Of a stretch of 64,000 nt of DNA, positions 1-56,091 are shown piece by piece; position 1 is the first letter of the stretch; each line of letters begins with the position of its first letter. This DNA is from Acutalibacteraceae bacterium. Lineage in GTDB: Bacteria > Bacillota > Clostridia > Oscillospirales > Acutalibacteraceae. Under the pieces are notes generated by a model that ran no database searches, was not told where the DNA came from, and saw only the letters and a list, made by a program, of their open reading frames with translations. Both the position numbers and the translations under genes were made by a program. Location of the stretch: the NCBI GenBank assembly GCA_045642465.1, contig JAZUIY010000017.1, forward strand, positions 9,165-73,164, written 5' to 3'.

Positions 1-1374
1 GGCGTAGAGCCGGACGAAGGCGTTACCGGAATGACCACCGAATCCGGAAACTATGGACCATATCAGCAAAGTAAACGAAAAGAAATTTATCAGACCTACG
101 CCAAGCAGCTGGTCAAGGAAGGATTGGCTTATCCTTGCTTCTGCACCGCAGAGGATCTGGATGCCATGCGTGCAAAGCAGGAAAGCGAAGGGGTAACGCC
201 TGGTTACTATGGCGAATACGCCACCTGCCGCAACCTGCCTTTGGAAGAAGTAGAGGCAAAACTGAAAGCGGGCACTCCTTATGTGCTTCGTTTAAAGAGC
301 CCGGGAACACCGGACGGAAAAATTGCTTACCAGGATGTCATTAAGGGCAAGATTGAACTGCCGGAAAACATCATGGATATTGTGCTTCTGAAAACCGACG
401 GCATCCCAACCTACCACTTTGCACACTGTGTAGATGACCACTTAATGCACACCACCCACGTGGTCCGCGGTGACGAATGGATTTCTTCCGTTCCAACCCA
501 CATTCAGCTCTTCAAGGTTTGCGGCTTTAAAACCCCGAAGTATGCTCATATTGCACCAATTATGAAATTGGACGAAGGCAACAAGAGAAAGCTTTCCAAG
601 AGAAAAGACCCGGAAGCAGCTGTTAGCTACTACATTGAAGAAGGATATCCAAAGGAATCCGTCTTAGAATATCTGCTTACCTTGGCCAACTCCAACTTTG
701 AAGACTGGAGACGTGCCAATAAGGATGCAGACCTGTCTCAGTTCCCATTCAACTTAAAGAAGATGAGCGTCAGCGGCGCTTTGTTTGACCTGGCAAAACT
801 GAATGACGTCAGCAAAAACGTCATTTCCGTCATGCCTGCAGCAGACGTGGTGGAAAAGACCATGGAATGGGCAAAGGACTACAACGAAAAGTTCTATGAA
901 CTGCTGAAGGCAGACAAGGAAAAGGCCACCGCCATTTTGTCCATTGACCGCGGCAATAAGAAGCCGAGAAAGGACATTGCAAAATGGTCTGACGTACCAG
1001 AGTACGTGGCCTATTTCTATAACGACCTTTATACTCCTGACTACACCTTGCCGGAAAACATTCAGCCGGCTGACGCAGTAGCCATTTTAAAGGCCTACAA
1101 AGAAGCATATGACCCGGCAGACGACAAGGATGCCTGGTTCAATAAAATCAAAGACATCTGTGAACCACTTGGATTCACACCAAACGTCAAGGAATATAAG
1201 GCAAATCCGGATGGCTTCAAAGGCCATGTTGGGGATGTCAGCAGCGTGATTCGTGTAGCCGCTACATCGCGCACCAATACGCCGGACCTTTACTTTATTC
1301 TTCAGATTCTGGGGAAGGAAGAAATGGCTAGACGCTTTGACGAAGCAATTTTGTTTTATGGAGGGGAAATTTAA
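1..1374 (+). CDS. gltX: glutamate--tRNA ligase (GluRS), 5' end cut by window edge
   Basis: Frame 1 is open from base 1 ([10 protein letters not shown] precedes the first Met). Class I aaRS core with KMSKS-like KLSKR, plus a typical GluRS C-terminal anticodon-binding region. Stop overlaps glnS start (TAATG at 1372-1376). Confidence 0.9.
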
Positions 1375-3050
1375 TGGCAGACGAAACCGTAATGACTGCA
1401 GAAGAAACTGCGGTTCCTTCCAACTTTATTCATGACTTCATTGATGAAGATTTGGCAGAAGGCGTGTACAGCCGTGTCCAGACCCGATTCCCACCGGAAC
1501 CAAACGGATACCTGCACATTGGCCATGCCAAGGCAATTTACATCAACTTTTTCACCAAGGAAAAATATAAGGGCATCTGCAACCTGCGTATGGACGACAC
1601 CAACCCGGGCAAGGAAGACGTGGAATATGCAGAAGCCATTAAAGAAGACATCAAATGGCTGGGCTACGACTACGACAACGTATTCTATGCCTCTGACTAT
1701 TTTGACTTTATGTATGAAAATGCCCTGAAGCTGATTAAAGCAGGCAAAGCATTTGTATGCGATTTAACCGCTGATGAAATCAAAGAGTACCGCGGAACTT
1801 TGACAGAGCCGGGCAAAAACAGCCCATATAGAGACCGCTCTGTGGAAGAAAACCTGGAACTCTTCCAGCGCATGACCGACGGCGAATTTGCCGACGGGGA
1901 AAAGGTGCTCCGTGCCAAGATTGACATGAGCTCCCCTAACATCAACATGCGTGACCCGGTTATTTACCGTATTGCTCACCTGAGCCATTACAAGGCAGGG
2001 GACAAGTGGTGTGTATATCCAATGTATGACTTTGCCCATCCATTGGAAGACGCTTGCGAAGGCGTTACCCATTCCCTTTGCTCTTTGGAATTTGAAAACC
2101 ATAGACCGCTTTATGACTGGGTACTCCAGAACTGTGGCATTGAAGAAGCACCGCGCCAGATTGAGTTTGCACGTCTCAACTTAAACTACTGCGTTACTTC
2201 CAAGCGCCGCTGCCTGTACCTGGTAAACAACGGTTACGTAGACGGCTGGGATGACCCTCGTATGGTAACCGTGTGTGGCATGAGACGCCGTGGGTTCCCG
2301 CCAGAAGCCATCCGTGACTTCTGCGAACGCATTGGTATTTCCAAGGCCTATTCTGTAGTAGACTTTGGCCTTTTGGAAGCTTGTGTCAGAGACAACTTGA
2401 ACGCCAACGCACCGCGTGCTATGGCAGTTCTCCGCCCGCTGAAAGTCATTATTGATAACTATCCGGAAGGCCAGACCGAAACCTTGGAGGTTGAGGTTCA
2501 TCCGCAGAAACCGGAACTGGGCACCAGAGAAGTAACCTTCTCCAGAGAACTTTACATTGAACAGGACGACTTCATGATTGAACCGGTGAAGAAGTATAAA
2601 CGTTTCTATCCGGGCAACGAAGTTCGCCTGAAGGGTGCTTATTTTGCCACCTGCAAGAGTTATGAAACCGATGAAGACGGCAACGTAACCTGCATCCACG
2701 TAGAATACGATCCATTGTCCAAGGGCGGCGAAAGCCCGGATGGACGCAAGGTTCGCGGCACCATCCATTGGGTTTCCGCTGTAGACTGCATTCCTGCTGA
2801 AGTACGTCTTTATGACCGTCTCTTCAACGTGGAAAATCCGTCTGATGACAGTCACCCATTGGAAGATTACCTGAACCCGAATTCCTTAGAAGTGCTGGAA
2901 GGTGCTTTGCTGGAAGGCGGACTGAAGGACTTGAAACCGGGCGACACCTTCCAGTTCATGCGGAAGGGTTACTACACTGTAGATAAATACAGCACCCCGG
3001 AAAAACTCATTATCAACCGTACTGTAGACCTGAACTCTTCTTTTAAATAA
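1374..3050 (+). CDS. glnS: glutamine--tRNA ligase (GlnRS)
   Basis: 558 aa. HIGH motif in [14 protein letters not shown]; KMSKS-like VTSKRR. Full-length similarity to the GlnRS architecture, including the C-terminal beta-barrel anticodon domain. Confidence 0.93.
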
Positions 3051-11312: not shown

Positions 11313-11336
11313 AATGTCGCTGTGAAACAGCACATG

Positions 11337-11413
11337 CGCTAGTAGCTCAGCTGGATAGAGTGTCTGACTACGAATCAGAAGGTCGGGGGTTCGAGTCCCT
11401 CCTGGCGCGCCAA
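11337..11413 (+). tRNA. tRNA-Arg (anticodon ACG), CCA encoded
   Basis: Manual cloverleaf: acceptor GCGCTAG/CTGGCGC, D-arm GCTC..GAGT, anticodon stem TCTGA/TCAGA with loop CTACGAA, T-arm GGGGG TTCGAGT CCCTC, discriminator G plus CCA. Confidence 0.95.
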
Positions 11414-11417
11414 ATAA

Positions 11418-11456
11418 GGTAGTAGATTTTGCTAGAAAGTCTACTACCTTTTTTCT
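11418..11456 (+). terminator. intrinsic terminator after tRNA-Arg
   Basis: 10-bp stem AGGTAGTAGA/TCTACTACCT (11418-11427 / 11441-11450) followed by TTTTT. Confidence 0.75.
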
Positions 11457-11493
11457 ATGCAAAACCGAGAAAAGTAGTTTCTAGGAGGAAAAT

Positions 11494-11856
11494 ATGTTAT
11501 TGAAATGTATTGCAGTCGGTTTTGGAGGGTTTATTGGGTCCATAGCCAGATATCTTATTTCTAAAGTGGAATTGCAACATGGTGGGAAATTCCCAATAAA
11601 CACTCTCATTGTAAATATAGTAGGAGCTGTGTTAATTGGCTATATTATTAGCAGTGCTAAGAACAGTGGAATGAGCGAAGAAAAACTATTGTTTTTAAAA
11701 GTTGGACTATGTGGTGGTTTAACAACATTCTCAACATTTTCCGTTGAGACTTTGGGCTATATTCAATCCGGCAATGTTCTGATGGGTATAGCATATTCAG
11801 CGGTTTCAGTAGTGCTTTGTGTATTGGGCGTTATGATTGGATTAAAACTAGCATAA
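11494..11856 (+). CDS. crcB: fluoride ion channel CrcB/FluC
   Basis: 120 aa, 4 TM, GGFIGSIARY and GLCGGLTTFSTF motifs. AGGAGG RBS. GC about 36-38% in two sampled 60-nt windows, versus about 47-52% in a neighbouring gene. Confidence 0.9.
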   Translation: MLLKCIAVGFGGFIGSIARYLISKVELQHGGKFPINTLIVNIVGAVLIGYIISSAKNSGMSEEKLLFLKVGLCGGLTTFSTFSVETLGYIQSGNVLMGIAYSAVSVVLCVLGVMIGLKLA

Positions 11857-11959
11857 AATGTCTTTTGACGATTGGAGTAGCAAACCGGAGCATGGTCTTG
11901 CACACGCGCCTCGTTTTTGTTACTATTTTCTTGTTATTGAATACCACGTTTTTTAGTTC

Positions 11960-12120
11960 TGCTTTACGCAGCTAAGAGGGAAACAGGTGAAAAACCTGTG
12001 CGGTCCCGCCACTGTAACGGAAGAGTATCAGACGAATATGTCACTGGCCTCGGCTGGGAAGACGGTCTGATATGTTGACACCGGAGCCAGGAGACCTGCT
12101 AAAAGGCGGTATGCTTGTTA
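11960..12120 (+). promoter_or_regulatory. cobalamin (B12) riboswitch aptamer
   Basis: AGAGGGAAACAGGTGAAAAACCTGTGCGGTCCCGCCACTGTAA core and B12 box AGCCAGGAGACCTGC at 12085-12099. Boundaries are approximate. Confidence 0.85.
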
Positions 12121-12167
12121 TGTCTACGGTGAATAGACAGAGTATACAGAGTTTGTCGTTACAAAAA

Positions 12168-12206
12168 ACGGGCTGTAACGTTTGGCGGCGTTACCGGCCC
12201 TTTTTC
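12168..12206 (+). terminator. riboswitch expression-platform terminator (with competing upstream hairpin)
   Basis: Stem 12170-12180/12189-12200 (11 bp, one bulge) followed by TTTTT. CGTTACA (12158-12164) can alternatively pair with TGTAACG (12174-12180). Confidence 0.7.
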
Positions 12207-12263
12207 TATTTTCGGCAAACTCAAATTGCGTCAAAAAATCTTTGTCGAAAGGGGTTTTATTCC

Positions 12264-12800
12264 ATGGAAAACCTGGAACCTGTTTACAAGCAGAAACGTA
12301 TTCGTAACATCCTCCTCATGGTACTGTCCGTTCTTGTACTGTTTAGTTCAGCGTGCGGAACGGGAACAAACCGGCAGGATAATACCGTCAATTCTGCTGA
12401 CAAGAACGGCTCCAGTACTACCCCTATTACCGTTACCGTGTCCATTACTTGTGACTGGCTTTTGGACCATTTGGATCAGACCCCGGACGGGGTGGAACAA
12501 CGGATTCCAAAAGATGGGGTTCTGCTGGCACCGGTAACCGTGACTGTTCCTGCCGGAAGCAATGCGTTTGACGTATTGGATCAGGTTTGTAAAGAAAAGA
12601 ATCTGCCGGTTGACCGGGTGAAAAAAGCCATGGGCACTTATGTTCGGGCCATTGGGGCCATTTACGAACGGTATGCAGGGGATGCCAGTGGCTGGAAATA
12701 TCAAGTGAACGGAGTGCTCCCAAACATTGCCAGCAGTGCTTATATCCTGCAAGACGGAGACGAAATCATCTGGTTATATACCACGGAAGCCGGGAACTAG
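12264..12800 (+). CDS. DUF4430 (transcobalamin-like C-terminal/beta domain) lipoprotein
   Basis: Start at ATG 12264, downstream of the riboswitch terminator; the track start 12072 runs through the aptamer. Signal peptide with lipobox-like FSSAC. C-terminal GWKYQVNG...YILQDGDEIIWLY matches the DUF4430 pattern. Confidence 0.8.
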   Translation: MENLEPVYKQKRIRNILLMVLSVLVLFSSACGTGTNRQDNTVNSADKNGSSTTPITVTVSITCDWLLDHLDQTPDGVEQRIPKDGVLLAPVTVTVPAGSNAFDVLDQVCKEKNLPVDRVKKAMGTYVRAIGAIYERYAGDASGWKYQVNGVLPNIASSAYILQDGDEIIWLYTTEAGN

Positions 12801-12809
12801 GAGATACTT

Positions 12810-13889
12810 ATGAATTTATGGAAAAAGTGCATCGCCCTCATAATGGCCTTGGTTTTGATGCTGGCTTTGCTGCCGACCACGGCCTTTGCGGAGAGTGGAA
12901 AATATAAAAACGCAGAAGACTACCTGTATGGTTTGCTGCAAGATGCCCCAAGTCTTGGGTCCGAATATTACCTTTTGACCTTGCTTCGGGCCGGCTACCC
13001 AATCCATCAGGATGTGCTGGATGCCTACGAAGCCTCCGTAAAACAGGATGGCTTAAATGAAGGCTTTAACCCCTCTTTGGTTATGACATTGACTGCCTTA
13101 GGAGAGGACGCTTCCAACTTTGACAACGTTAATTACCTGAGCAAACTGGGGTCTTTGGAAGAACTGAAAAACCACTTTGTAACGGAAGAAGCCTATGGCT
13201 TAATGGCTGTAGATTGCGGAAATTATTGGGACAAAGTGGACTTTACCTCGGAAGATTTGGTTTCCGATTTGCTGGCTCACCAGCTGCCGGATGGAGGCTG
13301 GGGTTATGAGTCCGATGGGAAATTGACCTTTGATGTTGACTCAACGGCAATGGTTATCCAAGCATTGGCACCGTACAAGAATCAGGAAAAGGTAAAGGAC
13401 GCCATTGAAAAGGGCTTCAACCAACTTTCCCAGGCCCAAGAGGCCGGTGGCGGATATGTTGCATGGGGTGAAGAAAACGCCGCAACCACCGCCCAGGTTA
13501 TGGTGGCTCTTTGCAGCGTGGGCGTGAATCCGGCAAAGGACAAGCGCTTTGTGAAAAACGGCAAAACCTTAGGGGACGCCATGATGAAATCATACATTCC
13601 AAATGGCGGATTTTCCGTGGCCCCGGGAGGGGAAGCCAATGCGTATGCAGCCTATGAATGCCTCACCGCCTTGGTGGCCTGTGACCGCTTGAACAGTGGA
13701 AAAACATCCTTCTTCGACATGAGCGATTCAGCTGTGGTCCTTGCAAAGGGTACTTCCATTTCCACAGATACGGTTCAGAAAGCCAAAACACGGCAGCTTC
13801 TGATTCTGGCTGTAGTGTGGATTGTGGGTATTGTATTTGTGATTCTATCTAACAAAAGACATAAGAAAGCAAAGAGCAAACTATCCTAA
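12810..13889 (+). CDS. secreted prenyltransferase/terpenoid-cyclase-like (alpha/alpha toroid) repeat protein with C-terminal TM anchor
   Basis: Signal peptide ending TTAFA/ES. Repeated aromatic-Gly motifs QLPDGGWGY, EAGGGYVAWG and IPNGGFSV. C-terminal hydrophobic helix LLILAVVWIVGIVFVIL followed by KRHKKAKSK. AGGAG RBS 7 nt upstream. Confidence 0.7.
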   Translation: MNLWKKCIALIMALVLMLALLPTTAFAESGKYKNAEDYLYGLLQDAPSLGSEYYLLTLLRAGYPIHQDVLDAYEASVKQDGLNEGFNPSLVMTLTALGEDASNFDNVNYLSKLGSLEELKNHFVTEEAYGLMAVDCGNYWDKVDFTSEDLVSDLLAHQLPDGGWGYESDGKLTFDVDSTAMVIQALAPYKNQEKVKDAIEKGFNQLSQAQEAGGGYVAWGEENAATTAQVMVALCSVGVNPAKDKRFVKNGKTLGDAMMKSYIPNGGFSVAPGGEANAYAAYECLTALVACDRLNSGKTSFFDMSDSAVVLAKGTSISTDTVQKAKTRQLLILAVVWIVGIVFVILSNKRHKKAKSKLS

Positions 13890-13895
13890 AAATAA

Positions 13896-13928
13896 ACGCC
13901 TCGTGCAATTGCACGGGGCGCTATTTTA
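13896..13928 (+). terminator. intrinsic terminator ending the B12-regulated cassette
   Basis: 10-bp stem 13897-13906/13911-13920 (CGCCTCGTGC/GCACGGGGCG, one G-U pair) followed by CTATTTTA. Confidence 0.65.
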
Positions 13929-19982: not shown

Positions 19983-21419
19983 ATGCAAAGAGCAAAAAAA
20001 GCATTGGCCTTGTTGCTAGTGCTGGTATTTTTCGTGCTCTTCGGTGCATCTGCATGTCATAAGAAAACAGATGATGGGACCGGGTCAGACGTGCCAAAAG
20101 TGGCAAGCGAATCTGACATTGTCATTCCCTATTCCCGTGAAGACGGATTGAATCCTTATATGGCAAAGAGCCTGCTCAATCAGATTTTGATGCCACTGCT
20201 CTACAATGGCCTTTTCTCCGTTGCAGAAGATTATTCCGTAACACCGGTCATTGCAGAAAGCGCCAGTTTCTCCGGGCCAAACTTAATTGTCACCATTAAG
20301 AAGGATGCCAAATTTGCGGATGGCAGCCCAATTACAGCCAATGACGTAGCTTATTCTTTTACCAAGGCCAAGAATTCCGTATACTATTCCACCACATTAA
20401 ATGAATTTGCCACGGCCACTGCACAAGGGGACGACACCGTCACCTTTACCATGATTTCGAAAAATCTGTACGCCACCGCAGTGTTGACCTTCCCAATCAT
20501 CAAATTGGGTACGTCTATTGCAGCAGATGTCTTGCCAACCGGCACAGGGATGTACACCTATGAGGCTACTGCAGATGGCGGCATTCTTCATTTAAATGAA
20601 GGATACTCCGGCAAAACAAGAGCCGTTTATTTAACCAACATTACCCATACCAACACCTTGCTGGACAGTTTGGGCGTAGGCAACATGGACTTTGCCTATG
20701 ACGAAATGATGGATGGCAAGCTGCAAAGGGTCCGCAACATTAATGAATGTCAGGTTCCTCTGAACCAAATTGTGGTTTTGGGTGTGAATACCGGCAGAAG
20801 TTATTTGAGCAATCCAACCATCCGGGTTTACCTCAGCGCCCTTCTGGACAGAGAGGCATTAATTACCACCGGTTTAGACGGATATGCAGACCCATCTGTA
20901 TTGCCGTTTAACCCAGCTTGGTATGAAATCAAAAACCTGGAATTGCCACGCATAGATACCAAGGTGGCCAAGGCTACCGTAGCAGATCACTTCAAGGGTA
21001 TGAAATTGAATATCCTTACAGACGAAAGCAACGACTACAAAATGAAACTGGCCGATGCAGTTTCCAAACAGCTGGCAGCCATTGGCGTGGATTCCACCAT
21101 TACAGCATTGCCATACACCACTTATAAAAGCGCTGTATCCGGCCATATGTATGACTTATACATTGGGGAATACCGCTTGACCAATGACATGAACATTGGG
21201 TTCCTGCTCAGCGGAGATATTCAGGAACAGTTCCGTTATGTACAGACCGGTTCTTTGAACCTAGAAAAATATATTGAGTATTACTACTCCCAAATGCCAA
21301 TGATTACCATTGGCTTCCGTAATGCAGTTCTTTGCTACGGAAAAGAAATTGTCTCGGATGTAACCGGCTTGCCGGGAAACCCGCTGGGCAATTTACCAAA
21401 TTTTGAAAAAGAAGTATAA
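19983..21419 (+). CDS. ABC transporter family-5 (peptide/nickel type) substrate-binding lipoprotein, orphan
   Basis: Lipobox GASAC. SBP_bac_5-like N-terminal pattern (LNPY...LLYNGLF...KFADGSPITANDV). No permease or ATPase genes adjacent. Confidence 0.8.
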   Translation: MQRAKKALALLLVLVFFVLFGASACHKKTDDGTGSDVPKVASESDIVIPYSREDGLNPYMAKSLLNQILMPLLYNGLFSVAEDYSVTPVIAESASFSGPNLIVTIKKDAKFADGSPITANDVAYSFTKAKNSVYYSTTLNEFATATAQGDDTVTFTMISKNLYATAVLTFPIIKLGTSIAADVLPTGTGMYTYEATADGGILHLNEGYSGKTRAVYLTNITHTNTLLDSLGVGNMDFAYDEMMDGKLQRVRNINECQVPLNQIVVLGVNTGRSYLSNPTIRVYLSALLDREALITTGLDGYADPSVLPFNPAWYEIKNLELPRIDTKVAKATVADHFKGMKLNILTDESNDYKMKLADAVSKQLAAIGVDSTITALPYTTYKSAVSGHMYDLYIGEYRLTNDMNIGFLLSGDIQEQFRYVQTGSLNLEKYIEYYYSQMPMITIGFRNAVLCYGKEIVSDVTGLPGNPLGNLPNFEKEV

Positions 21420-34436: not shown

Positions 34437-36824
34437 ATGGATTTGAAACAACTCCTAGAGAAAAAAGAGTTGATCCTTCTGGATGGTGCCATGGGCACCG
34501 TCATTCAAAAGAGCGGAGTCACTTTTAACCATGTGCCGGAAACCCTGAATGTGGAAAACCCGGACTTCATGGTTTCCGTTCACAAACAGTATATTGATGC
34601 CGGCTCCGACATAGTGTTTACCAACACCTTTGGGGCCAATGCTTATAAACTTTCTGACTGCGGTTATTCCGTGTCGGAATTGGTACGTTCTGCAGTTTCT
34701 AATGCCAAAAAGGCAGCCGAGGGCACAGACACCTTAGTGGCCTTGGACATTGGCCCAATTGGAAAACTGATGGAGCCGTCCGGGGACATGACCCTGGAAG
34801 AAGCCTATGGCTATTACAAAGAAATGATTTTGGCAGGGGAAGAGGCAGATTTGATTGCCTTCGAAACCATGACAGATTTACTGGAACTGAAAGCCGGTGT
34901 ACTGGCTGCCAAGGAAAATAGTGACAAACCAATTCTCTGTAGCATGTCCTATGAACTGACTGGTAGAACCTTTACCGGGGTAGCACCGTCTGCAGAAGCC
35001 CTGACCTTAGCCGGCCTCGGCGTAGATGCCTTGGGCGTGAACTGCTCTGTGGGTCCAAAGGATTTGCTTCCAATGGTGAAGGAACTGTCAGAGTTCACCA
35101 CGTTGCCACTGCTGATTAAGCCAAATGCAGGCCTGCCGGATCCGGCTACCAACGAATATGACATTGACCCGAAGCAGTTTGCAAAGCAGGTATTGGAACT
35201 GTTGCCATACGGTGCCAAGTTCATTGGCGGCTGCTGTGGCACCAATCCGGAATACATTGCCACTTTGGCTGCTGCGGTAGCAGATCAAACGTATACCAAA
35301 GCCCAGGGCTTTAGTGGCACTGCCGTTTCCAGCCCAAGCAAAACCCTTCGGATTGACCGCCCAACCATCATTGGGGAACGCATCAATCCAACCGGAAAAA
35401 AGAAAATGCAGGCTGCCTTATTAGAAGGCGACCTAGACTATATTTTAGGCATGGCCAAGGAAGAAATTCAGGGCGGTGCTGAAATCATCAATGTGAATGT
35501 AGGCCATCCGGGTGTGGATGAAGTGGAACTGCTTCCAAAACTCATCCGAAAACTGCAGGGTGTTTGTGACTTGCCTTTGATGATTGATACCACCAATCCG
35601 AAGGCCATGGAAGCAGCCCTTCGTGCTTATAATGGCAAGGCCATTGTGAACTCGGTCAACGGGGAAGAAGAAAAGCTTTCTACCATTTTGCCATTGGTGG
35701 CAAAGTATGGCGCTTGTGTGGTTGGCCTTACATTGAATGAAGATGGCATTCCAGATACAGCAGAAGGCCGTCTTGCCATTGCCAAGCGCATTGTGGACCG
35801 GGCTGCCACTTATGGCATTCCAAAAGAAGATGTCTTCATTGACTGCCTGACTTTGACCATTTCTGCGGAACCGACTGCAGCCGAGGTAACCGTTGACGCT
35901 GTGAAACTGGTGAAGGAAAAACTGGGATGTAAAACCATTTTGGGTGTTTCCAATATTTCCTTTGGTTTGCCAAACCGCGGCCTGGTGAACCGGACTTTCT
36001 TGAGCCTGGCTTTGGGTGCCGGTTTGGATTTCCCAATTATCAACCCGAACATGGGTGAAATGACCGATGTGGTCCGCGCCTTCCGTGTACTGAATCAGAC
36101 GGATGCCGGTGCCAATGAATATATTGACTTTTATAAAGAAGTCAAAGCATCCAGCCAGCCGGCTGCTGCGCCAAAAGAAATCAACAATATCTTGGATGCC
36201 GTGTATAACGGCTTAAAGACCGAGGCTGCAAAAGCCACGGAACAGATGTTGGAGAACACCCCATCTATGGTTATCATCAATGACCACCTCATTCCTGCTT
36301 TGGATAAAGTAGGGGAGGACTACGAGCGGGGCGAACTGTTCCTGCCACAGCTCATTCAGAGTGCAGATGCCGCACAGGCCTGCTTTGACGTGCTGAAGAA
36401 GAATATGGATGATTCTTCGGACAGCACCATGAGTAAGGGAACCGTTATTTTGGCCACCGTAAAAGGGGATATCCACGACATTGGGAAAAACATTGTCAAA
36501 GTGCTCTTGGAAAATTACGGTTACACCGTTTTGGACCTGGGTAAAGACGTAGACCCAGAAGTAGTAGTGGCAACCGCTGTGAAGGAAGACGTTGTGGCAG
36601 TAGGCCTTTCCGCCTTAATGACCACCACGCTGCCAAGTATGAAAGAAACCATTGCACTGCTGCGCGCAGAACCGGCACTACAGAATGCCGACGGTACCAG
36701 CAAGGTAACCATCATGGTGGGCGGTGCAGTTTTAACCGAAGAATATGCTATGCAAATTGGGGCAGACTACTATTGTAAGGATGCCAAAGAAACCGTAGAC
36801 CGCTGTAAAGTAATCTTCGGATAA
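34437..36824 (+). CDS. metH: cobalamin-dependent methionine synthase, short form lacking the reactivation (AdoMet-binding) domain
   Basis: Hcy S-methyltransferase domain (GGCCGT), pterin-binding domain, B12 cap, and B12-binding DxHxxG (GDIHDIGKN) with SALMTTT. Ends at 795 aa. Confidence 0.9.
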   Translation: MDLKQLLEKKELILLDGAMGTVIQKSGVTFNHVPETLNVENPDFMVSVHKQYIDAGSDIVFTNTFGANAYKLSDCGYSVSELVRSAVSNAKKAAEGTDTLVALDIGPIGKLMEPSGDMTLEEAYGYYKEMILAGEEADLIAFETMTDLLELKAGVLAAKENSDKPILCSMSYELTGRTFTGVAPSAEALTLAGLGVDALGVNCSVGPKDLLPMVKELSEFTTLPLLIKPNAGLPDPATNEYDIDPKQFAKQVLELLPYGAKFIGGCCGTNPEYIATLAAAVADQTYTKAQGFSGTAVSSPSKTLRIDRPTIIGERINPTGKKKMQAALLEGDLDYILGMAKEEIQGGAEIINVNVGHPGVDEVELLPKLIRKLQGVCDLPLMIDTTNPKAMEAALRAYNGKAIVNSVNGEEEKLSTILPLVAKYGACVVGLTLNEDGIPDTAEGRLAIAKRIVDRAATYGIPKEDVFIDCLTLTISAEPTAAEVTVDAVKLVKEKLGCKTILGVSNISFGLPNRGLVNRTFLSLALGAGLDFPIINPNMGEMTDVVRAFRVLNQTDAGANEYIDFYKEVKASSQPAAAPKEINNILDAVYNGLKTEAAKATEQMLENTPSMVIINDHLIPALDKVGEDYERGELFLPQLIQSADAAQACFDVLKKNMDDSSDSTMSKGTVILATVKGDIHDIGKNIVKVLLENYGYTVLDLGKDVDPEVVVATAVKEDVVAVGLSALMTTTLPSMKETIALLRAEPALQNADGTSKVTIMVGGAVLTEEYAMQIGADYYCKDAKETVDRCKVIFG

Positions 36825-53000: not shown

Positions 53001-54068
53001 ATGCAAAAGCAAAATGAAATCAAAGTGCCAACCAAATTGTTGGACGAAAAAGGTTATGTAACAGAACCTGGCTGGGCAAGACACAACCGCCTGCTGCAGT
53101 ACAACAAAGCAGATGTTACTGCTCATCCACTGCGGATTAAGGAATGGGACTTCTTCCAGATTTCTGACGGCCGTTATATGACCCAGTTCACCATTGCCAA
53201 CATTTCCATGGCAGAAGCAGGCTGCATTACCGTAACCGACATCAAAACCGGACAGCTTGTTCTGTTGGCTGCAATGGCTCATGTTTACACCGTAAACCGC
53301 TTCCCAATGCCATCTTGTTCTGATGACCCATGTGACGTAAAGCGTAACTACCTTTACTTCAAGATGGAGGAAACCTACAATGGCAAGAACCTTCGTGAAC
53401 TGAAGGCTTCCGGTATTGCTCTTTGGCCTCTGGGTCAGAAGTTCGAATTGGACTATAAGTGTGAAGTTCCGGAAGGACAGGAATCTATTAATATTGTTAT
53501 TCCTTGGAAGAAGAAGGACGCTCCTGGTTCCGAAAAGATGAAGGACCACTTCTTCTACACCAATAAAGAAGACTGCATGCCAGTTACCGGCTTTGTTTCC
53601 GTTGGTAAGAAACGCATCAACTTTACTCCGGACAAGACCTTCTGTGTACTGGACTGGGGCCGTGGTGTTTGGGCTCACGACATTCGCTGGCTGTGGGGCA
53701 ACGGTACCACCTATATCAACGACAAGCTCTTTGGCTTTGAATTGACCTGGGGCTTCGGTGACGACTCCGATGCTACCGAAACCTGCCTGTTCTATGACGG
53801 TGTTGCTCATAAGCTGGGTAAGTGTACTGCAGATTATGACCTGAAACATCCGCTTCGCCCATGGGTATTCCATGAAGAAAACGGACGTTTTGAAATGACC
53901 ATGACACCAATTTATAACAATGCTATGGCATTCGACATCGGTGTTGCCGGCGCTCATACCAACCAGGTACACGGTCTCTGGAATGGTACCGTTACTTTGG
54001 ATGACGGCACTGTATTAGAAATCAAAGACATGTACGCTTTCTGCGAAGACTGCCATAACAAGTGGTAA
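53001..54068 (+). CDS. DUF2804-like protein
   Basis: 355 aa. The N-terminal pattern LLDEKGYVTEPGW...LRIKEWDFF resembles DUF2804 family members as I recall them; not verifiable here. Confidence 0.6.
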   Translation: MQKQNEIKVPTKLLDEKGYVTEPGWARHNRLLQYNKADVTAHPLRIKEWDFFQISDGRYMTQFTIANISMAEAGCITVTDIKTGQLVLLAAMAHVYTVNRFPMPSCSDDPCDVKRNYLYFKMEETYNGKNLRELKASGIALWPLGQKFELDYKCEVPEGQESINIVIPWKKKDAPGSEKMKDHFFYTNKEDCMPVTGFVSVGKKRINFTPDKTFCVLDWGRGVWAHDIRWLWGNGTTYINDKLFGFELTWGFGDDSDATETCLFYDGVAHKLGKCTADYDLKHPLRPWVFHEENGRFEMTMTPIYNNAMAFDIGVAGAHTNQVHGLWNGTVTLDDGTVLEIKDMYAFCEDCHNKW

Positions 54069-54177: not shown

Positions 54178-55827
54178 CTAATTTTCAGTTGGCAGTTTGG
54201 TCAGTTTTTTTGCCCAAGTCTTGAGGAAGACAAGTACAATCATCAAAAGAACGAGAGCAATTGCCAAAGACATCCATACGTTTTGAACGAAGCCGGCCAC
54301 AATGTAAGAAACACAGGAGACGGCGGCTACGGTTAAGGCATATGGTATTTGGGTCTTTACGTGTACCAGGTGGTTACACTGAGCACCGGCAGAGGACATG
54401 ATAGTGGTGTCGGAAATTGGGGAAATGTGGTCACCGCAAACAGAACCTGCAAGGCATGCGGACATACCAATGAGGAACAGTGGGTTGGTAACAGCAAATA
54501 CCTGAGTCACAATTGGAATCAGGATCCCGAAGGTACCCCAAGAAGTGCCGGTGGAGAAGGAGATAAACACAGCTACCAGGAAAATGATGGCCGGCAGGAA
54601 TTTCTGCAGGTCTCCGGCATTGGCCATGGCTTCCTGTACAAAGGCACTGGAGTCCAGAAGGGAAGTCATGTTCTTCAAAGCAGTGGCAAGTACCACAATG
54701 AGGATTGGCGCTACCATGGAAACAAATCCATCCGGAATGCATTTCATGGCATCGTTAAAGCTGATGACACGGCGGCAAACCATATAAATAATGGTGAATA
54801 CCAAGGTGACAATGCCTGCCCAAGGAAGGCCGACCGTTGCGTCCGTGTTGGAGAAGGCATCAATGAAATTGTTGCCTTCAAAAATACCGCCTACATAAAC
54901 CAGGGCAAATACAGAAACAGCAATGAGGACTACTACCGGAAGGATTAAGTCCATCATTTTACCGTTGCTGTTGGTCTCATTCTCTATGGTGTTTTTATCG
55001 TTAACATCGTCAGAGAAGAGAACCCCCTTGGAAATGGCGTTGGCTTCGTACTTCTTCATTGGGCCATAGTCAATCTGGAAAATGGCAATGACAATAATGA
55101 AGGCCAAAGTCAGCAGGGAGTAGTAGTTATATGGAATGGCCTGAATAAACAGTTTCAAACCGCTTTCACCGGTTCCTTTGGCGTAGTCTGCAACAGCTGC
55201 TGCCCAAGAGGAAATTGGGGCAATCATACAAATCGGAGCGGCGGTGGCATCAATTAAATAGGCCAACTTTGCTCTGGAAATTTTATGGGAGTCCGTAACC
55301 GGTCTCATAACAGCACCTACGGTAAGGCAGTTGAAATAGTCATCAATGAAGATGAGAACCCCTAATGCGAAGGTGGCCAACATGGCGCCTGGACGGGTCT
55401 TAATGTGCTTTTGTGCCCATTCACCGAAGGCGGCAGAGCCGCCGGCTTTGTTGACTAAAGAAACGATGGCACCCAAAGTAACCAAGAAAATGATGATACC
55501 GGCCAAAGAGATAATGGAGCCGGTAGGACCGTCAGATCCGTCACTGACAAATCCGGCAGTGAGCAGAGTGTCCATGGTTTCCAGCGGCTGAAACCCGCTG
55601 TAAATGGCAGCCCCGGCCAAAACACCCAAAAACAGGGAAGAATAGACTTCTTTGGTTACCAGGGCCAGGCCAATGGCGAATACCGGTGGGAACAAAGACC
55701 ACAGGGTGGCATTTGGCACCGTAATTGGTGACATAACGCCGCAAACGACGGCAAACAGGATGACAAAGGCTATGGCTGCTATGCCAGTCTTTGAAATAGG
55801 GAACTTGCGTTCGGCTTTTCGGTTCAT
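54178..55827 (-). CDS. NhaC-family antiporter-type transporter, lysine-riboswitch controlled
   Basis: 549 aa, polytopic, with family-like FIDDYFNCLTVGAVMRP segment. GGAGG RBS 7 nt upstream. Confidence 0.85.
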   Translation of the reverse strand: MNRKAERKFPISKTGIAAIAFVILFAVVCGVMSPITVPNATLWSLFPPVFAIGLALVTKEVYSSLFLGVLAGAAIYSGFQPLETMDTLLTAGFVSDGSDGPTGSIISLAGIIIFLVTLGAIVSLVNKAGGSAAFGEWAQKHIKTRPGAMLATFALGVLIFIDDYFNCLTVGAVMRPVTDSHKISRAKLAYLIDATAAPICMIAPISSWAAAVADYAKGTGESGLKLFIQAIPYNYYSLLTLAFIIVIAIFQIDYGPMKKYEANAISKGVLFSDDVNDKNTIENETNSNGKMMDLILPVVVLIAVSVFALVYVGGIFEGNNFIDAFSNTDATVGLPWAGIVTLVFTIIYMVCRRVISFNDAMKCIPDGFVSMVAPILIVVLATALKNMTSLLDSSAFVQEAMANAGDLQKFLPAIIFLVAVFISFSTGTSWGTFGILIPIVTQVFAVTNPLFLIGMSACLAGSVCGDHISPISDTTIMSSAGAQCNHLVHVKTQIPYALTVAAVSCVSYIVAGFVQNVWMSLAIALVLLMIVLVFLKTWAKKLTKLPTEN

Positions 55828-55849
55828 AGGTGAACCTCCTCACAAAAAT

Positions 55850-55892
55850 AGTAAAAAAGAAAGCAGTTATAGCGCTATGCTATAACTGCTTT
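55850..55892 (-). terminator. lysine riboswitch expression-platform terminator
   Basis: 13-bp stem 55861-55873/55879-55891 followed, on the minus strand, by TCTTTTTT. Confidence 0.75.
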
Positions 55893-55915
55893 AAATGCAT
55901 CTTAAAACAGAATTT

Positions 55916-56074
55916 CGTAGCGCTCCACAAACTTGTGACAGTGGCATACTTCTTCAATATGTCCCCAGCAAACAAGCCCTGACAGCTGCTTGTTCACTTC
56001 GGCGGAAGCCCCTTTTGTCTTGCTGCTCTGTCCAGCGTTTGCAAGAGGACTGATGGATTCCGCGCCTCTACTTA
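55916..56074 (-). promoter_or_regulatory. lysine riboswitch (L-box) aptamer
   Basis: Minus-strand sequence contains GTAGAGGCGCG, CCGCCGAAG, GCTGGGGA, CCACTGTCAC and GTGGAGCGCTAC. These match the conserved L-box blocks seen in the B. subtilis lysC and Thermotoga lysine riboswitches. Confidence 0.88.
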
Positions 56075-56091
56075 AATTCAATTACTTTGGT

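What the first reader, a model, noticed from the sequence alone, without database searches (positions are those of the whole stretch)
11960..13928. Cobalamin-riboswitch-gated two-gene cassette resembling a split, surface-tethered transcobalamin
Seen in sequence:
- A B12 riboswitch (B12 box AGCCAGGAGACCTGC at 12085-12099) with its own terminator precedes exactly two genes, and a second terminator follows them.
- Gene 1 (12264-12800) is a lipoprotein whose only recognisable domain is DUF4430 (GWKYQVNG...YILQDGDEIIWLY).
- Gene 2 (12810-13889) has a cleavable signal peptide, repeated aromatic-Gly motifs (QLPDGGWGY, EAGGGYVAWG, IPNGGFSV) of the prenyltransferase/terpenoid-cyclase alpha/alpha-toroid type, and a C-terminal TM helix plus a basic tail.

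Established knowledge: eukaryotic B12 carriers (transcobalamin, intrinsic factor, haptocorrin) consist of an alpha6/alpha6 barrel plus a small beta domain that together sandwich cobalamin. DUF4430 is the family that also covers that beta domain.

Inference: the two polypeptides could reconstitute such a carrier in trans on the outer face of the membrane, as a B12-repressed corrinoid capture device. No BtuFCD, ECF-CbrT or other transporter lies in the operon or anywhere in the window, so the uptake partner is unknown. A B12-dependent MetH lies at 34437. I cannot tell from here whether this pairing has been characterised in Firmicutes.
Basis: partly seen in the sequence, partly recalled or inferred. 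Interest (0 to 1): 0.72.

Follow-up and report, generated by a model that had tools for sequence, protein, structure and literature searches.

The report
B12-repressed split transcobalamin-like surface pair
A vitamin-B12-sensing RNA switch controls two membrane-tethered surface proteins that match the two halves of the animal B12 carriers; this module is widespread in Firmicutes and was predicted in 2007 to scavenge B12, but here it sits without its usual ECF importer.

Summary
An RF00174 cobalamin riboswitch (115.7 bits) with its own terminator precedes exactly two co-oriented genes, and a strong terminator follows them.

- **Gene 1** is a lipobox/N-terminally anchored DUF4430 (SLBB) protein.
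- **Gene 2** is a signal-peptide, alpha/alpha-toroid, C-terminal-TM protein (AF2 pLDDT 90).
- **Link between the two families.** DUF4430 is adjacent to or fused with the toroid gene in 72 of 79 loci. More than 1,500 natural fusions read toroid-TM-TM-DUF4430.
- **Structural match.** A modelled fusion has intrinsic factor, transcobalamin and haptocorrin as its top 15 PDB matches.
- **Riboswitch association.** 33 of 60 related clusters with a visible upstream region carry a cobalamin riboswitch.
- **Usual transporter partner.** 30 of 35 fully visible loci also encode an ECF transporter, and the S-components tested (two related loci) match CbrT best among solved structures.
- **What differs here.** The window copy is a minority "orphan" layout (5 of 35 loci): short, reversed gene order, no ECF genes anywhere in 64 kb.

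The idea is not new, though. Burroughs et al. 2007 predicted B12 scavenging by these proteins, and a split alpha/beta pair was described in an L. sakei ECF operon. Corrinoid binding and heterodimer formation remain untested. I classify this as a new member of a known, uncharacterised kind.

The parts
11937..12117 (+). Cobalamin riboswitch aptamer (RF00174), B12 box at 12085-12099
   Evidence: Rfam cmscan gives 115.7 bits, E 2.7e-28, over the full-length model. The custom CM R1 gives 150.4 bits.
12170..12213 (+). Leader intrinsic terminator (expression platform): hairpin 12170-12200 followed by a U-tract
   Evidence: RNA fold of 12085-12215 shows a 13-bp hairpin, GGGCUGUAACGUU...GGCGUUACCGGCCC, followed by UUUUUCUAUUUU. 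The simple pattern scan missed it, probably because the stem has a bulge. OFF-switch logic is inferred.
12264..12800 (+). Gene 1: membrane-anchored (lipobox LFSSAC, Cys31) DUF4430/SLBB protein, 178 aa. The DUF4430 domain spans residues 98-173 (nt 12555-12782). The putative RBS is GAAAGGGG at 12247-12254.
   Evidence: PF14478 at E 4.6e-15. Alignment with stand-alone and fused DUF4430 domains shows the conserved SGW.Y.VNG motif. The profile's top PDB hit is the intrinsic factor beta domain, residues 313-397, at a marginal E of 0.18. The DUF4430 domain of a homolog that is 39% identical in the domain alignment A2 superposes on the TC beta domain 5no0 with TMt 0.73 and 3.1 A.
12810..13889 (+). Gene 2: type I membrane protein, 359 aa. 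Signal peptide residues 1-27 (AFA|ES); alpha/alpha toroid at about residues 30-313 (nt 12897-13748); TM helix at about residues 328-347 (nt 13791-13850); basic cytoplasmic tail residues 348-359.
   Evidence: AF2 model with pLDDT 90.4 and pTM 0.80. Foldseek hits are terpene cyclases, prenyltransferase beta subunits and transcobalamin. Pfam SQHop_cyclase_C E 1e-7. 4,018 family clusters at E<=1e-10.
13897..13928 (+). Operon terminator: 10-bp GC-rich hairpin 13897-13920 plus a T-run
   Evidence: Found by the terminator scan. Fold gives -21.3 kcal/mol, z = -4.48, with 0 of 200 shuffles folding as well.

Best explanation
The locus is a B12-repressed bicistronic operon.

**Regulation (inferred from anatomy).** When intracellular adenosylcobalamin or another corrinoid is plentiful, the RF00174 aptamer binds it and transcription stops at the leader terminator (12170-12213). 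When B12 is scarce, read-through expresses two proteins that both end up on the outer face of the cytoplasmic membrane.

**The two proteins.**
- Gene 1 is a lipid- or signal-anchored DUF4430/SLBB beta-grasp domain. It is homologous to the beta domain of transcobalamin, intrinsic factor and haptocorrin.
- Gene 2 is an alpha/alpha toroid held by a C-terminal TM helix. It has the same fold class as the carriers' alpha domain.

**What they belong to.** They are the two halves of a widespread Firmicutes 'transcobalamin-like' surface module. That module normally sits in a riboswitch-controlled operon with an ECF transporter. The S-components tested (two related loci) match CbrT, the B12-specific S-component, best among solved structures.

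**Most likely function (inferred, not shown).** The module captures cobalamin, cobinamide or other corrinoids from the medium with high affinity at the cell surface. Most probably the ligand is held between the two domains, as in the animal carriers. It is then handed over to an importer encoded elsewhere in this genome, most likely an ECF-CbrT type transporter.

**How the window copy differs.** It is a minimal, orphan version. Both proteins are short, they are membrane-tethered rather than SLH-, dockerin- or giant-protein-borne, the gene order is reversed (beta then alpha), and no transporter gene is in the operon or the window.
For: **Shown by tool results**
- Riboswitch, leader terminator and 3' terminator.
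- PF14478 in gene 1.
- Confident toroid model of gene 2, with transcobalamin among the structural hits.
- Rosetta-stone fusions: six of the first 31 gene-2 homologs, and 1,527 proteins in a dedicated search, read SP-toroid-TM-short basic loop-TM-DUF4430. That equals gene 2 joined to gene 1 at their cytoplasmic ends.
- Fusion model P0019: the top 15 PDB hits are all IF, TC or haptocorrin (E 4e-7 to 8e-6), spanning both domains. Terpene cyclases follow only from E 4.6e-5. The TC beta domain alone matches with TMt 0.73.
- Adjacency or fusion of DUF4430 with the toroid in 72 of 79 loci from different species.
- A solid cobalamin riboswitch within 1.5 kb upstream of the first toroid/DUF4430 gene in 33 of 60 clusters with visible upstream sequence. 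Rfam cross-checked a subset.
- ECF genes next to the pair in 30 of 35 loci with at least 5 kb on both sides. These are an EcfT-like protein, and EcfA-A' either fused to or followed by an S-component.
- The S-components' best PDB match is 6fnp_A, the CbrT chain of ECF-CbrT (E 7e-6 and 7e-7).
- The closest TM-anchored toroid (P0007) ends a CobT-CobU-CobS-CobC nucleotide-loop operon.
- The closest gene-1 relative (P0033) follows EcfT-EcfAA'-EcfS.
- Other orphan two-gene cassettes exist, one of them (L013) with a 136.6-bit riboswitch.
- The organism uses B12, because MetH is in the window.

**Literature**
- Burroughs et al. 2007 predicted B12 scavenging for these proteins (PMC1796856).
- The L. 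sakei Lsa1839/Lsa1840 split pair (10.1101/864751).
Against: - No binding data exist for any bacterial member in the literature I could search.
- Gene 2 alone is no closer to transcobalamin than to farnesyltransferase beta or drimenyl-diphosphate synthase by fold. By sequence profile it is closest to squalene-hopene cyclase (E 1e-25), with no carrier hit at E<=1.
- PF01122 (Cobalamin_bind) is not matched.
- In the fusion model the overall rmsd to the carriers is 9-15 A, and TMt rises only from about 0.48 to about 0.55 when the beta domain is added. The TC-like sandwich geometry is therefore not reproduced.
- Toroid and DUF4430 genes also occur apart (L081, L085), so they may not be obligate partners.
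- No importer is visible in 64 kb, so hand-over is pure inference for this genome.
- For the L. sakei homologs the published interpretation is heme, not B12.
Confidence: 0.65

Rival explanations
1. The two proteins are corrinoid-related but do not form a transcobalamin-like sandwich. The DUF4430 domain binds the corrinoid on its own. The toroid does something else at the surface, such as scaffolding or docking to the ECF S-component, binding a different part of the cobamide, or processing or remodelling corrinoids.
For: - Toroid without DUF4430 occurs at the end of a CobT/CobU/CobS/CobC operon (L081-84).
- DUF4430 without toroid occurs behind EcfT-AA'-S (L085).
- The fusion model does not reproduce holo-TC geometry (rmsd 9-15 A).
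- Many operons carry several DUF4430 paralogs per toroid.
- From the L. sakei paper's reference list, the human TC beta domain has been crystallised alone in four states (Bloch 2017, cited).
Against: - 91% adjacency or fusion of the two families.
- More than 1,500 fusions that tether both domains to the same membrane hairpin.
- In every eukaryotic carrier the two domains cooperate on one ligand (PMC1796856).
Confidence: 0.2
2. The pair captures heme or another tetrapyrrole rather than corrinoids, as proposed for the L. sakei Lsa1839/Lsa1840 homologs in the lsa1836-1840 ECF operon.
For: The published model for L. sakei includes a deletion mutant tested for its role in heme uptake and docking of heme at the modelled alpha/beta interface (10.1101/864751).
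Against: - The window operon and at least 33 related clusters are controlled by RF00174 cobalamin riboswitches.
- The associated S-components match CbrT best.
- Genomic links are to cobamide nucleotide-loop genes.
- The docking energies reported in that paper favoured cobalamin in the templates.
Confidence: 0.05
3. Gene 2 is an extracytoplasmic enzyme of the terpenoid-cyclase/prenyltransferase superfamily, and the riboswitch link is indirect.
For: - The best sequence and profile hits are squalene-hopene cyclase repeats (E 3e-6 for the single sequence, 1e-25 for the profile).
- The top Foldseek hits are drimenyl-diphosphate synthases.
- The segment aligned to the SHC DVDDTA motif retains D175 and D177.
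Against: - The third Asp of DxDD is replaced by I, V, S or T in all 31 family members.
- It is a single toroid domain of about 285 residues rather than a beta-gamma didomain.
- The predicted location is outside the membrane, away from isoprenoid diphosphate substrates.
- It is consistently coupled to DUF4430, ECF-CbrT-like genes and B12 riboswitches.
Confidence: 0.05
4. The cassette is a decaying remnant of a former riboswitch-ECF operon and has no current function.
For: Orphan layout without ECF genes is a minority, 5 of 35 fully visible loci. Both proteins are much shorter than the typical forms of about 540 and 290 aa.
Against: - Both ORFs are intact with good RBSs, a full-scoring aptamer and both terminators.
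- A 99%-identical gene 1 is found in an independent ENA assembly.
- Equivalent short orphan cassettes recur in other lineages: L013 with a riboswitch, L029, and L090 with TM-anchored T plus D.
Confidence: 0.05

Closest known systems
Bacterial 'transcobalamin-like' SLBB plus alpha/alpha-toroid surface proteins of low-GC Gram-positives (Burroughs, Balaji, Iyer, Aravind 2007, PMC1796856)
   Same: - Same two domain families, both secreted or surface-located.
- Found in Firmicutes.
- Predicted to cooperate in scavenging B12 or its precursors.
- Usually encoded with CbiO/CbiQ-like (ECF) genes, and often with a second paralogous SLBB protein. My census reproduces all of this.
   Different: - That paper emphasises fused multidomain proteins, whereas here the domains are on two separate short polypeptides, each with its own membrane anchor.
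- No ECF genes are adjacent.
- The word 'riboswitch' does not occur in that paper. Here the link is documented for the window and for 32 further clusters.
Lactobacillus sakei Lsa1839 (beta-like) / Lsa1840 (alpha-like) in the lsa1836-1840 ECF operon (Verplaetse et al., bioRxiv 10.1101/864751)
   Same: [quoted passage not shown]
   Different: - The L. sakei pair is embedded in an ECF S/AA'/T operon and is interpreted as heme uptake.
- The window pair has no transporter genes and is under a cobalamin riboswitch.
Eukaryotic cobalamin carriers: transcobalamin, intrinsic factor, haptocorrin (PF01122 + PF14478)
   Same: - Two-domain logic: an alpha6/alpha6 toroid plus a beta-grasp SLBB domain.
- PF14478 covers the carriers' C-terminal domain (PMC4350170).
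- A natural bacterial fusion homologous to both window genes has these carriers as its 15 best PDB matches.
   Different: - Split into two membrane-tethered chains.
- Gene 2 does not match PF01122 and has only about 15-16% identity in structural alignments.
- Closed-sandwich geometry is not reproduced in the model.
- These are bacterial surface proteins rather than soluble plasma or gastric proteins.
ECF-CbrT vitamin B12 transporter of L. delbrueckii (Santos et al. 2018, PMC5997447, PDB 6FNP)
   Same: This is the likely downstream partner type. S-components encoded next to toroid/DUF4430 genes in related loci match the CbrT chain best among all solved structures.
   Different: - ECF-CbrT was shown to work without any extracytoplasmic binding protein.
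- No CbrT or ECF module is present in the window.
- The L. delbrueckii cluster contains an uncharacterised cbrS gene. I could not check whether it is a DUF4430 protein because Rodionov 2009 is not held.
Bacteroides BtuG/BtuH surface B12-capture lipoproteins (functional analogy; from my own knowledge, with Wexler 2018 cited in PMC6593275)
   Same: Surface-exposed, B12-regulated accessory proteins that capture corrinoids ahead of the membrane transporter.
   Different: The folds are unrelated (from my own knowledge, BtuG is a beta-propeller). The Bacteroides proteins belong to a Gram-negative outer-membrane system coupled to BtuB. No homology was tested or expected.
Class II terpene cyclases and prenyltransferase beta subunits (PF13243, PF00432)
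   Same: These are the closest relatives of gene 2 by sequence and profile. They share the alpha/alpha toroid with aromatic-Gly repeat motifs.
   Different: No DxDD motif (the family has DxD[IVST]TA), a single domain, an extracytoplasmic location, and a B12/ECF genomic context.

Membership tests
Cobalamin riboswitch (RF00174) | Score at or above the Rfam gathering threshold over the full covariance model, with the B12 box | tested here: met
   115.7 bits against a gathering score of 31.5, model positions 1-189 of 189, B12 box at 12085-12099.
Cobalamin riboswitch (RF00174) | Expression platform that couples ligand binding to gene expression | tested here: inconclusive
   An intrinsic terminator hairpin plus U-tract lies 53 nt after the aptamer. 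The anti-terminator/terminator switching was not modelled or assayed.
Bacterial transcobalamin-like SLBB/toroid surface module (Burroughs et al. 2007) | SLBB/DUF4430 domain of the transcobalamin-like clade | tested here: met
   PF14478 at E 4.6e-15 in gene 1. It aligns with the DUF4430 domains of the fusions at 27-39% identity, with a conserved SGW.Y.VNG motif.
Bacterial transcobalamin-like SLBB/toroid surface module (Burroughs et al. 2007) | Alpha/alpha toroid partner domain, fused or in the same operon | tested here: met
   Gene 2 model has pLDDT 90.4 and a toroid fold. It is homologous to the toroid part of the fusions (E 1e-23 to 1e-26). The pair is adjacent in the window and in 72 of 79 loci.
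Bacterial transcobalamin-like SLBB/toroid surface module (Burroughs et al. 2007) | Secreted or cell-surface location | tested here: met
   Signal peptide plus C-terminal TM with a basic tail in gene 2; basic n-region, hydrophobic core and lipobox Cys31 in gene 1. Read from the sequence by eye; no dedicated predictor was available.
Bacterial transcobalamin-like SLBB/toroid surface module (Burroughs et al. 2007) | Encoded with CbiO/CbiQ-like (ECF) transporter genes | tested here: not met
   No EcfT, EcfA-A' or S-component lies next to the cassette or anywhere in the 64-kb window. This feature is met in 30 of 35 fully visible related loci. It is typical of the family rather than strictly defining.
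Bacterial transcobalamin-like SLBB/toroid surface module (Burroughs et al. 2007) | Host lacks complete B12 biosynthesis (auxotroph or salvager) | not testable with these tools
   Only 64 kb of an unnamed 76.8-kb contig is available. No cob/cbi genes are in the window, and MetH is present.
Eukaryotic cobalamin carrier family (transcobalamin / intrinsic factor / haptocorrin; PF01122 + PF14478) | N-terminal alpha6/alpha6 domain matching PF01122 Cobalamin_bind | tested here: not met
   No PF01122 hit at E<=1. No carrier appears in PDB sequence or profile searches at E<=1. The similarity is fold-level only (7qbe_A TMq 0.52).
Eukaryotic cobalamin carrier family (transcobalamin / intrinsic factor / haptocorrin; PF01122 + PF14478) | C-terminal beta domain (PF14478) | tested here: met
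   PF14478 in gene 1. The profile's top PDB hit is the IF beta domain (E 0.18, in register). The homologous domain of the fusion superposes on 5no0 with TMt 0.73.
Eukaryotic cobalamin carrier family (transcobalamin / intrinsic factor / haptocorrin; PF01122 + PF14478) | Both domains in one soluble polypeptide that closes around one cobalamin | tested here: not met
   The window has two separate membrane-anchored polypeptides. Natural single-chain fusions exist, but with a TM hairpin between the domains. Closure around a ligand cannot be tested here.
Class II terpene cyclase (squalene-hopene cyclase type) | Catalytic DxDD motif | tested here: not met
   The aligned segment reads DVDSTA in gene 2. 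The position of the third Asp is I, V, S, T or L in all 31 family members.
Class II terpene cyclase (squalene-hopene cyclase type) | Two-toroid (beta-gamma) didomain forming the active-site cavity | tested here: not met
   The AF2 model has a single toroid of about 285 residues. Foldseek alignments cover only 255-290 columns of the 470-490-residue cyclases.

The most novel reading that the evidence does not exclude
The two membrane-tethered halves close around a corrinoid as a ligand-induced heterodimer. In that reading the pair is a living 'split' version of the ancestor of transcobalamin, intrinsic factor and haptocorrin. In this orphan layout it would work as a stand-alone, B12-repressed surface capture or hoarding device, a Gram-positive counterpart of Bacteroides BtuG/BtuH. 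It would feed an unlinked importer, either ECF-CbrT or one still unknown, and could give its host an edge in competition for corrinoids in the gut.
Probability: 0.35. Interest if true: 0.7.

Novelty: new member of a known kind. Interest (0 to 1): 0.45.

Why it matters
**The open problem.** How Gram-positive gut anaerobes acquire corrinoids is still largely unresolved. Rodionov et al. 2019 state that identifying B12 and precursor transporters in many gut genomes 'remains an open problem' (PMC6593275).

**Scale of the family.** The toroid/DUF4430 module is very large:
- 4,018 clusters at 50% identity with E<=1e-10.
- At least 583 matching stretches in the species-representative genome collection.
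- It includes giant surface proteins and a dockerin-bearing form in Ruminococcus bromii.
- It is tied to B12 riboswitches and CbrT-like ECF transporters.

**What is missing.** I found no biochemical demonstration that any bacterial member binds B12.

**Why this cassette is useful.** The window's version is about the smallest natural form: two short ectodomains, no extra domains, and clean regulatory signals. That makes it a convenient construct for three tests:
1. Whether bacterial transcobalamin-like proteins bind corrinoids.
2. Whether the alpha and beta halves assemble in trans.
3. Whether ECF transporters, usually described as lacking extracytoplasmic binding proteins, can use such accessory receptors.

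It also bears on the proposed bacterial origin of the animal B12 carriers.

Tried and rejected
1. **Sequence-level link of gene 2 to transcobalamin.** phmmer and profile searches of all PDB sequences found only squalene-hopene cyclase, prenyltransferases and alpha2-macroglobulin thioester-type domains, with no carrier at E<=1. I therefore dropped any claim of demonstrable sequence homology of gene 2 to PF01122.
2. **Gene 1 against PDB by single sequence.** Nothing meaningful was found. The profile gave IF and TC beta domains only at E 0.18 and 1.1, which I treat as weak corroboration.
3. **The search for related loci with the 31-sequence alignment A1.** This failed because no stretch was conserved enough. 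I repeated it with the tighter alignment A3.
4. **Identifying the organism.** The exact-sequence contig look-up of gene 2 is not on record, and the cluster look-up gave no names. The organism stays unidentified, and no locus in the GTDB representative scan exceeds 42% identity.
5. **Weak hits of my own CM R1 (<38 bits).** Four of the six re-scanned with Rfam (L010, L077, L053, L034) were not confirmed at the gathering threshold. I excluded all R1 hits below 45 bits from the counts, except two that Rfam confirmed (L026, L047).
6. **Sandwich geometry test.** The fusion model hits the carriers across both domains, but at rmsd 9-15 A and pTM 0.61. The tool gives neither PAE nor coordinates, so domain docking is inconclusive. 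I could not co-fold the two window proteins. Only two structure jobs were allowed, and an artificial concatenation is not accepted. A beta-then-alpha order also could not be aligned sequentially to TC.
7. **Enzyme reading.** I checked the DxDD position and the thioester-like segment of gene 2. There is no DxDD, and the thioester-like segment reads WGEEN with no Cys at the thioester position.
8. **Literature.** Searches for DUF4430, PF14478, SLBB+corrinoid, cobalamin riboswitch+prenyltransferase, CbrS, and transcobalamin+ECF found no experimental characterisation. Rodionov 2009 (PMC2612444) is not held, so the nature of CbrS is unresolved.
9. **Window-wide transporter search.** No transporter partner was found.
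10. **Fluoride riboswitch before crcB.** None was found, even in E-value mode.

Full report
**1. Observation**

The region was read directly and all six frames were listed.
- Rfam finds a full-length cobalamin riboswitch aptamer at 11937-12117 on the + strand. It scores 115.7 bits against a gathering score of 31.5, with E 2.7e-28. The B12 box lies at 12085-12099.
- 53 nt downstream, a 13-bp hairpin (12170-12200) followed by UUUUUCUAUUUU forms a typical intrinsic terminator. The simple pattern scan missed it, probably because the stem has a bulge.
- Two genes follow, 9 nt apart, and each has a purine-rich RBS.
- A strong terminator sits at 13897-13920 (10 bp, 8 GC pairs, z = -4.5). It separates them from an OmpR-type response regulator, a histidine kinase and an HtrA-like protease downstream.
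- Upstream lie tRNA-Arg and crcB.

**2. The two proteins**

*Gene 1 (178 aa)*
- It has a basic n-region, a hydrophobic core and LFSSAC|G, which fits the lipobox pattern. Homologs instead have a plain N-terminal TM anchor.
- PF14478/DUF4430 at residues 98-173 (E 4.6e-15) is its only Pfam domain above the curated cut-off.

*Gene 2 (359 aa)*
- It has a signal peptide (AFA|ES), a domain of about 285 residues that gives only weak SQHop_cyclase_C and Prenyltrans hits, then a hydrophobic helix and the tail NKRHKKAKSKLS.
- With a 31-sequence alignment, AlphaFold2 gives a confident model (pLDDT 90.4, pTM 0.80) of an all-helical toroid.
- Foldseek against the PDB returns class II terpene cyclases, prenyltransferase beta subunits, GH105/GH88 toroids and transcobalamin. 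The transcobalamin hits are 4zrp_A at rank 12 (E 1.4e-3) and 7qbe_A (TMq 0.52, rmsd 4.6 A, 311 columns, 16% identity).
- The alpha/alpha-toroid prediction is therefore correct. On its own, gene 2 is no closer to the carriers than to prenyltransferases.
- By sequence profile it is closest to squalene-hopene cyclase (E 1e-25), with no carrier hit.

**3. What links the two genes**

*Rosetta-stone fusions*
- Among the first 31 homologs of gene 2, six are single chains that read signal peptide, toroid, linker, TM, short basic loop, TM, DUF4430.
- That is precisely gene 2 (toroid, TM, basic tail) joined at the cytoplasmic side to gene 1 (basic n-region, TM, DUF4430).
- A search seeded with one of them (P0019) found 1,527 proteins at E<=1e-10. 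The top 120 are mostly full-length fusions that NCBI names 'DUF4430 domain-containing protein'.
- Other homologs have DUF4430 domains N-terminal to the toroid (P0025, P0026) or directly C-terminal to it (P0028).

*Structure of a fusion*
- I modelled P0019. It is 27% identical to gene 2 over 83% of its length, and its DUF4430 domain is 39% identical to that of gene 1. The alignment had 68 sequences.
- The two domains are confident, while the linker and TM hairpin are not (pLDDT 78, pTM 0.61).
- Its 15 best PDB matches are all eukaryotic cobalamin carriers, aligned across both domains: intrinsic factor 3kq4_A (E 4.4e-7), rat, human and bovine transcobalamin, and haptocorrin 4kki.
- Terpene cyclases follow only from E 4.6e-5.
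- The isolated human TC beta domain (5no0) matches the DUF4430 part with TMt 0.73 and 3.1 A.
- The overall rmsd of 9-15 A shows that the model does not reproduce the closed holo-carrier arrangement. The architecture is carrier-like, but the docking geometry is unproven.

*Gene neighbourhood*
- A scan of one genome per GTDB species found at least 583 stretches encoding relatives of gene 2, and 80 loci were fetched. They come from Clostridia, Oscillospiraceae, Lachnospiraceae, Ruminococcus bromii ATCC 27255, Paenibacillus, Cohnella and others.
- Using my own ORF calls and HMMs built from alignments A2 and A3, a DUF4430 domain is in the same polypeptide or in the adjacent same-strand gene in 72 of 79 loci. 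It lies downstream in 54, upstream in 29 and in the same chain in 21.

**4. The wider system**

*ECF genes*
- Clustering the other neighbours gave two dominant families.
- The first is a protein of about 830-910 aa with two ABC_tran domains fused to an ECF S-component (PF07155/PF12822). NCBIfam identifies the ATPase part as ECF_ATPase_1/2.
- The second is a polytopic protein of about 297 aa that weakly matches ECF_T_CbiQ along its full length and PF02361 CbiQ in L085.
- Of the 35 loci with at least 5 kb visible on both sides, 30 carry these ECF genes next to the pair.
- The S-components have the CbrT chain of PDB 6FNP as their best match among all solved structures (E 7e-6 and 7e-7). 6FNP is the ECF-CbrT vitamin B12 transporter.

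*Riboswitches*
- A covariance model built from 15 riboswitches of these loci found 60 matches.
- I counted only hits of at least 45 bits, plus two weaker ones that Rfam confirmed. On that basis, 33 of 60 clusters with visible upstream sequence have a cobalamin riboswitch within 1.5 kb of the first toroid/DUF4430 gene, and 29 have one within 500 nt.
- Rfam itself confirmed a subset and rejected four of the weakest CM hits.

*Canonical operon*

The canonical operon reads: B12 riboswitch, optional giant surface protein of 1,000-2,700 aa carrying DUF4430 with or without a toroid, toroid protein (often with SLH repeats, or a dockerin in R. bromii), anchored DUF4430 protein, EcfT, EcfAA'-S.

*Closest relatives of each window gene*
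- P0007 is an SP-toroid-TM protein of 355 aa. It is the last gene of an AP_endonuc_2, PF04071, CobT, CobU, CobS, CobU, CobC, DUF2284 operon.
- P0033 is the closest gene-1 relative. It follows CbiQ, ABCx2 and an ECF S-component.
- P0002 is 45% identical to gene 2. It follows EcfAA' and an S-component.
- P0034 (gene-1-like) is preceded, with a 4-nt overlap, by a 516-aa SP-toroid-TM-basic-tail protein.

**5. How the window copy differs**

- Both proteins are short: 178 and 359 aa, against typical lengths of about 290 and 540 aa.
- Each is tethered by its own membrane anchor.
- The order is DUF4430 then toroid.
- No ECF gene is adjacent or anywhere in the 64-kb window.
- Only 5 of 35 fully visible loci share this orphan state. 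L013 is the best analogue, with a 136.6-bit riboswitch followed by a 398-aa toroid and a 146-aa DUF4430 protein.
- The window does encode a cobalamin-dependent MetH, so the organism uses B12.

**6. Mechanism**

*Shown*
- A ligand-sensing aptamer and terminator ahead of two co-transcribed extracytoplasmic proteins.
- Homology of gene 1 to the carriers' beta domain family.
- The toroid fold of gene 2.
- Strong evolutionary coupling, including fusion, of the two families.
- Coupling of the module to B12 riboswitches and CbrT-like ECF transporters in other genomes.

*Inferred*
- Under B12 limitation the pair is made and captures corrinoids at the membrane surface, probably between the two domains.
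- The corrinoid is then passed to an importer encoded elsewhere.

I put 0.65 on the corrinoid-capture function and about 0.35 on a true ligand-closing heterodimer.

*Rivals*
- Independent roles for the two proteins.
- A heme or other tetrapyrrole ligand, as published for L. sakei.
- An enzymatic toroid. This is disfavoured because the family motif is DxD[IVST]TA rather than DxDD, the protein has a single domain, and it lies outside the cell.
- A decaying remnant of a former operon.

**7. Comparison with what is known**

- Burroughs, Balaji, Iyer and Aravind (2007, PMC1796856) defined the SLBB superfamily. They described bacterial transcobalamin-like SLBB domains fused N- or C-terminally to alpha/alpha toroids and noted their surface location. 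They also noted operons with CbiO/CbiQ-like genes and second SLBB paralogs. They predicted scavenging of B12 or its precursors, and they proposed that animals acquired the carriers from low-GC Gram-positives.
- Verplaetse et al. (bioRxiv 10.1101/864751) described a split beta-like/alpha-like pair (Lsa1839/Lsa1840) in an ECF operon of L. sakei. They modelled it as a heterodimer but assigned it to heme uptake.
- I found no paper that reports corrinoid binding by a bacterial member, or that links DUF4430/toroid cassettes to cobalamin riboswitches. The searchable library is incomplete, however, and Rodionov 2009 is missing.

The window cassette is therefore a new, minimal, orphan member of a known but biochemically uncharacterised kind.

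**8. Verdict**

Novelty is modest. Its practical value is as a compact test system for bacterial transcobalamin-like B12 capture and for accessory receptors of ECF transporters. Interest 0.45.

Noticed in passing
window 54178-56078 (- strand): A lysine riboswitch (RF00168, 104.6 bits) at 55910-56078 sits directly upstream of a 549-aa Na_H_antiporter (NhaC-type) family membrane protein at 54178-55827. It is presumably a lysine-regulated transporter.
   Followed up: partly
window 34437-36824 (+): The cobalamin-dependent methionine synthase MetH is 795 aa. It has the Hcy, pterin, cap and B12-binding domains but no C-terminal AdoMet reactivation domain, so reactivation must be supplied in trans or differently.
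   Followed up: no
window 11336-11856 (+): tRNA-Arg(ACG) is followed by a palindromic hairpin (11409-11457, a spurious let-7 hit on both strands) and then crcB (fluoride channel). No fluoride riboswitch was detected, even in E-value mode.
   Followed up: yes
window 19983-21419 (+): An orphan SBP_bac_5 (oligopeptide/nickel-type) solute-binding protein has no adjacent ABC permease or ATPase genes. It lies between a ymdB-like gene and a fakA-like gene.
   Followed up: no
window 31-3050 (+): Two class I Glu/Gln-tRNA synthetase genes sit in tandem: a 447-aa GluRS-like protein that matches only part of the catalytic-domain model, and a 558-aa GlnRS-type protein.
   Followed up: no
L086 5889-6032 and 8646-8787; L087 and L088 5901-6038 and 8655-8790: Operons with the toroid-TM-TM-DUF4430 fusion carry two cobalamin riboswitches. 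One precedes a 257-aa protein plus the fusion. The second lies between the fusion and the HNH_repeat, EcfT, EcfAA', EcfS genes. This suggests separate B12 control of the receptor and the transporter.
   Followed up: partly
L086 6218-6991 (also the N-terminus of P0025): A 257-aa secreted protein upstream of the fusions has no Pfam or NCBIfam hit, and it did not match my DUF4430 HMM. By eye it shows a DUF4430-like pattern (…GLSIGKLWGDTSGNFGYYINN…VKNGDYLNAFVY). It is probably a divergent SLBB paralog that current models miss.
   Followed up: partly
L010 7188-10054 (Ruminococcus bromii ATCC 27255): The R. bromii homolog combines DUF4430, a toroid and a type I dockerin, so the putative B12 receptor may be mounted on a cohesin scaffold (amylosome-type). 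The candidate riboswitch there scored only 31 bits with my CM and was not confirmed by Rfam.
   Followed up: partly
L081 271-1277 and L085 6619-8067: A small Cys-rich PF04071 (zf-like) gene and an AP_endonuc_2 (xylose-isomerase-like TIM barrel) gene recur next to cobamide, ECF, DUF4430 and toroid genes. In L085 a 127.6-bit cobalamin riboswitch sits between them. This may be an uncharacterised B12-regulated pair.
   Followed up: no
L089 3694-4755 and window 53001-54068: A DUF2804 gene directly follows the closest gene-2 relative (P0002). A DUF2804 gene also exists in the window, about 40 kb from the cassette. This may be coincidence or a trace of shared ancestry of the genomes.
   Followed up: no
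P0038-P0185 and loci L003, L032, L034, L037: Most relatives of gene 2 are giant surface proteins of 1,000-5,000 aa that carry one to several toroid stretches, and several also carry DUF4430 domains. An entire class of very large, B12-riboswitch-associated Firmicutes surface proteins appears to be uncharacterised.
   Followed up: partly
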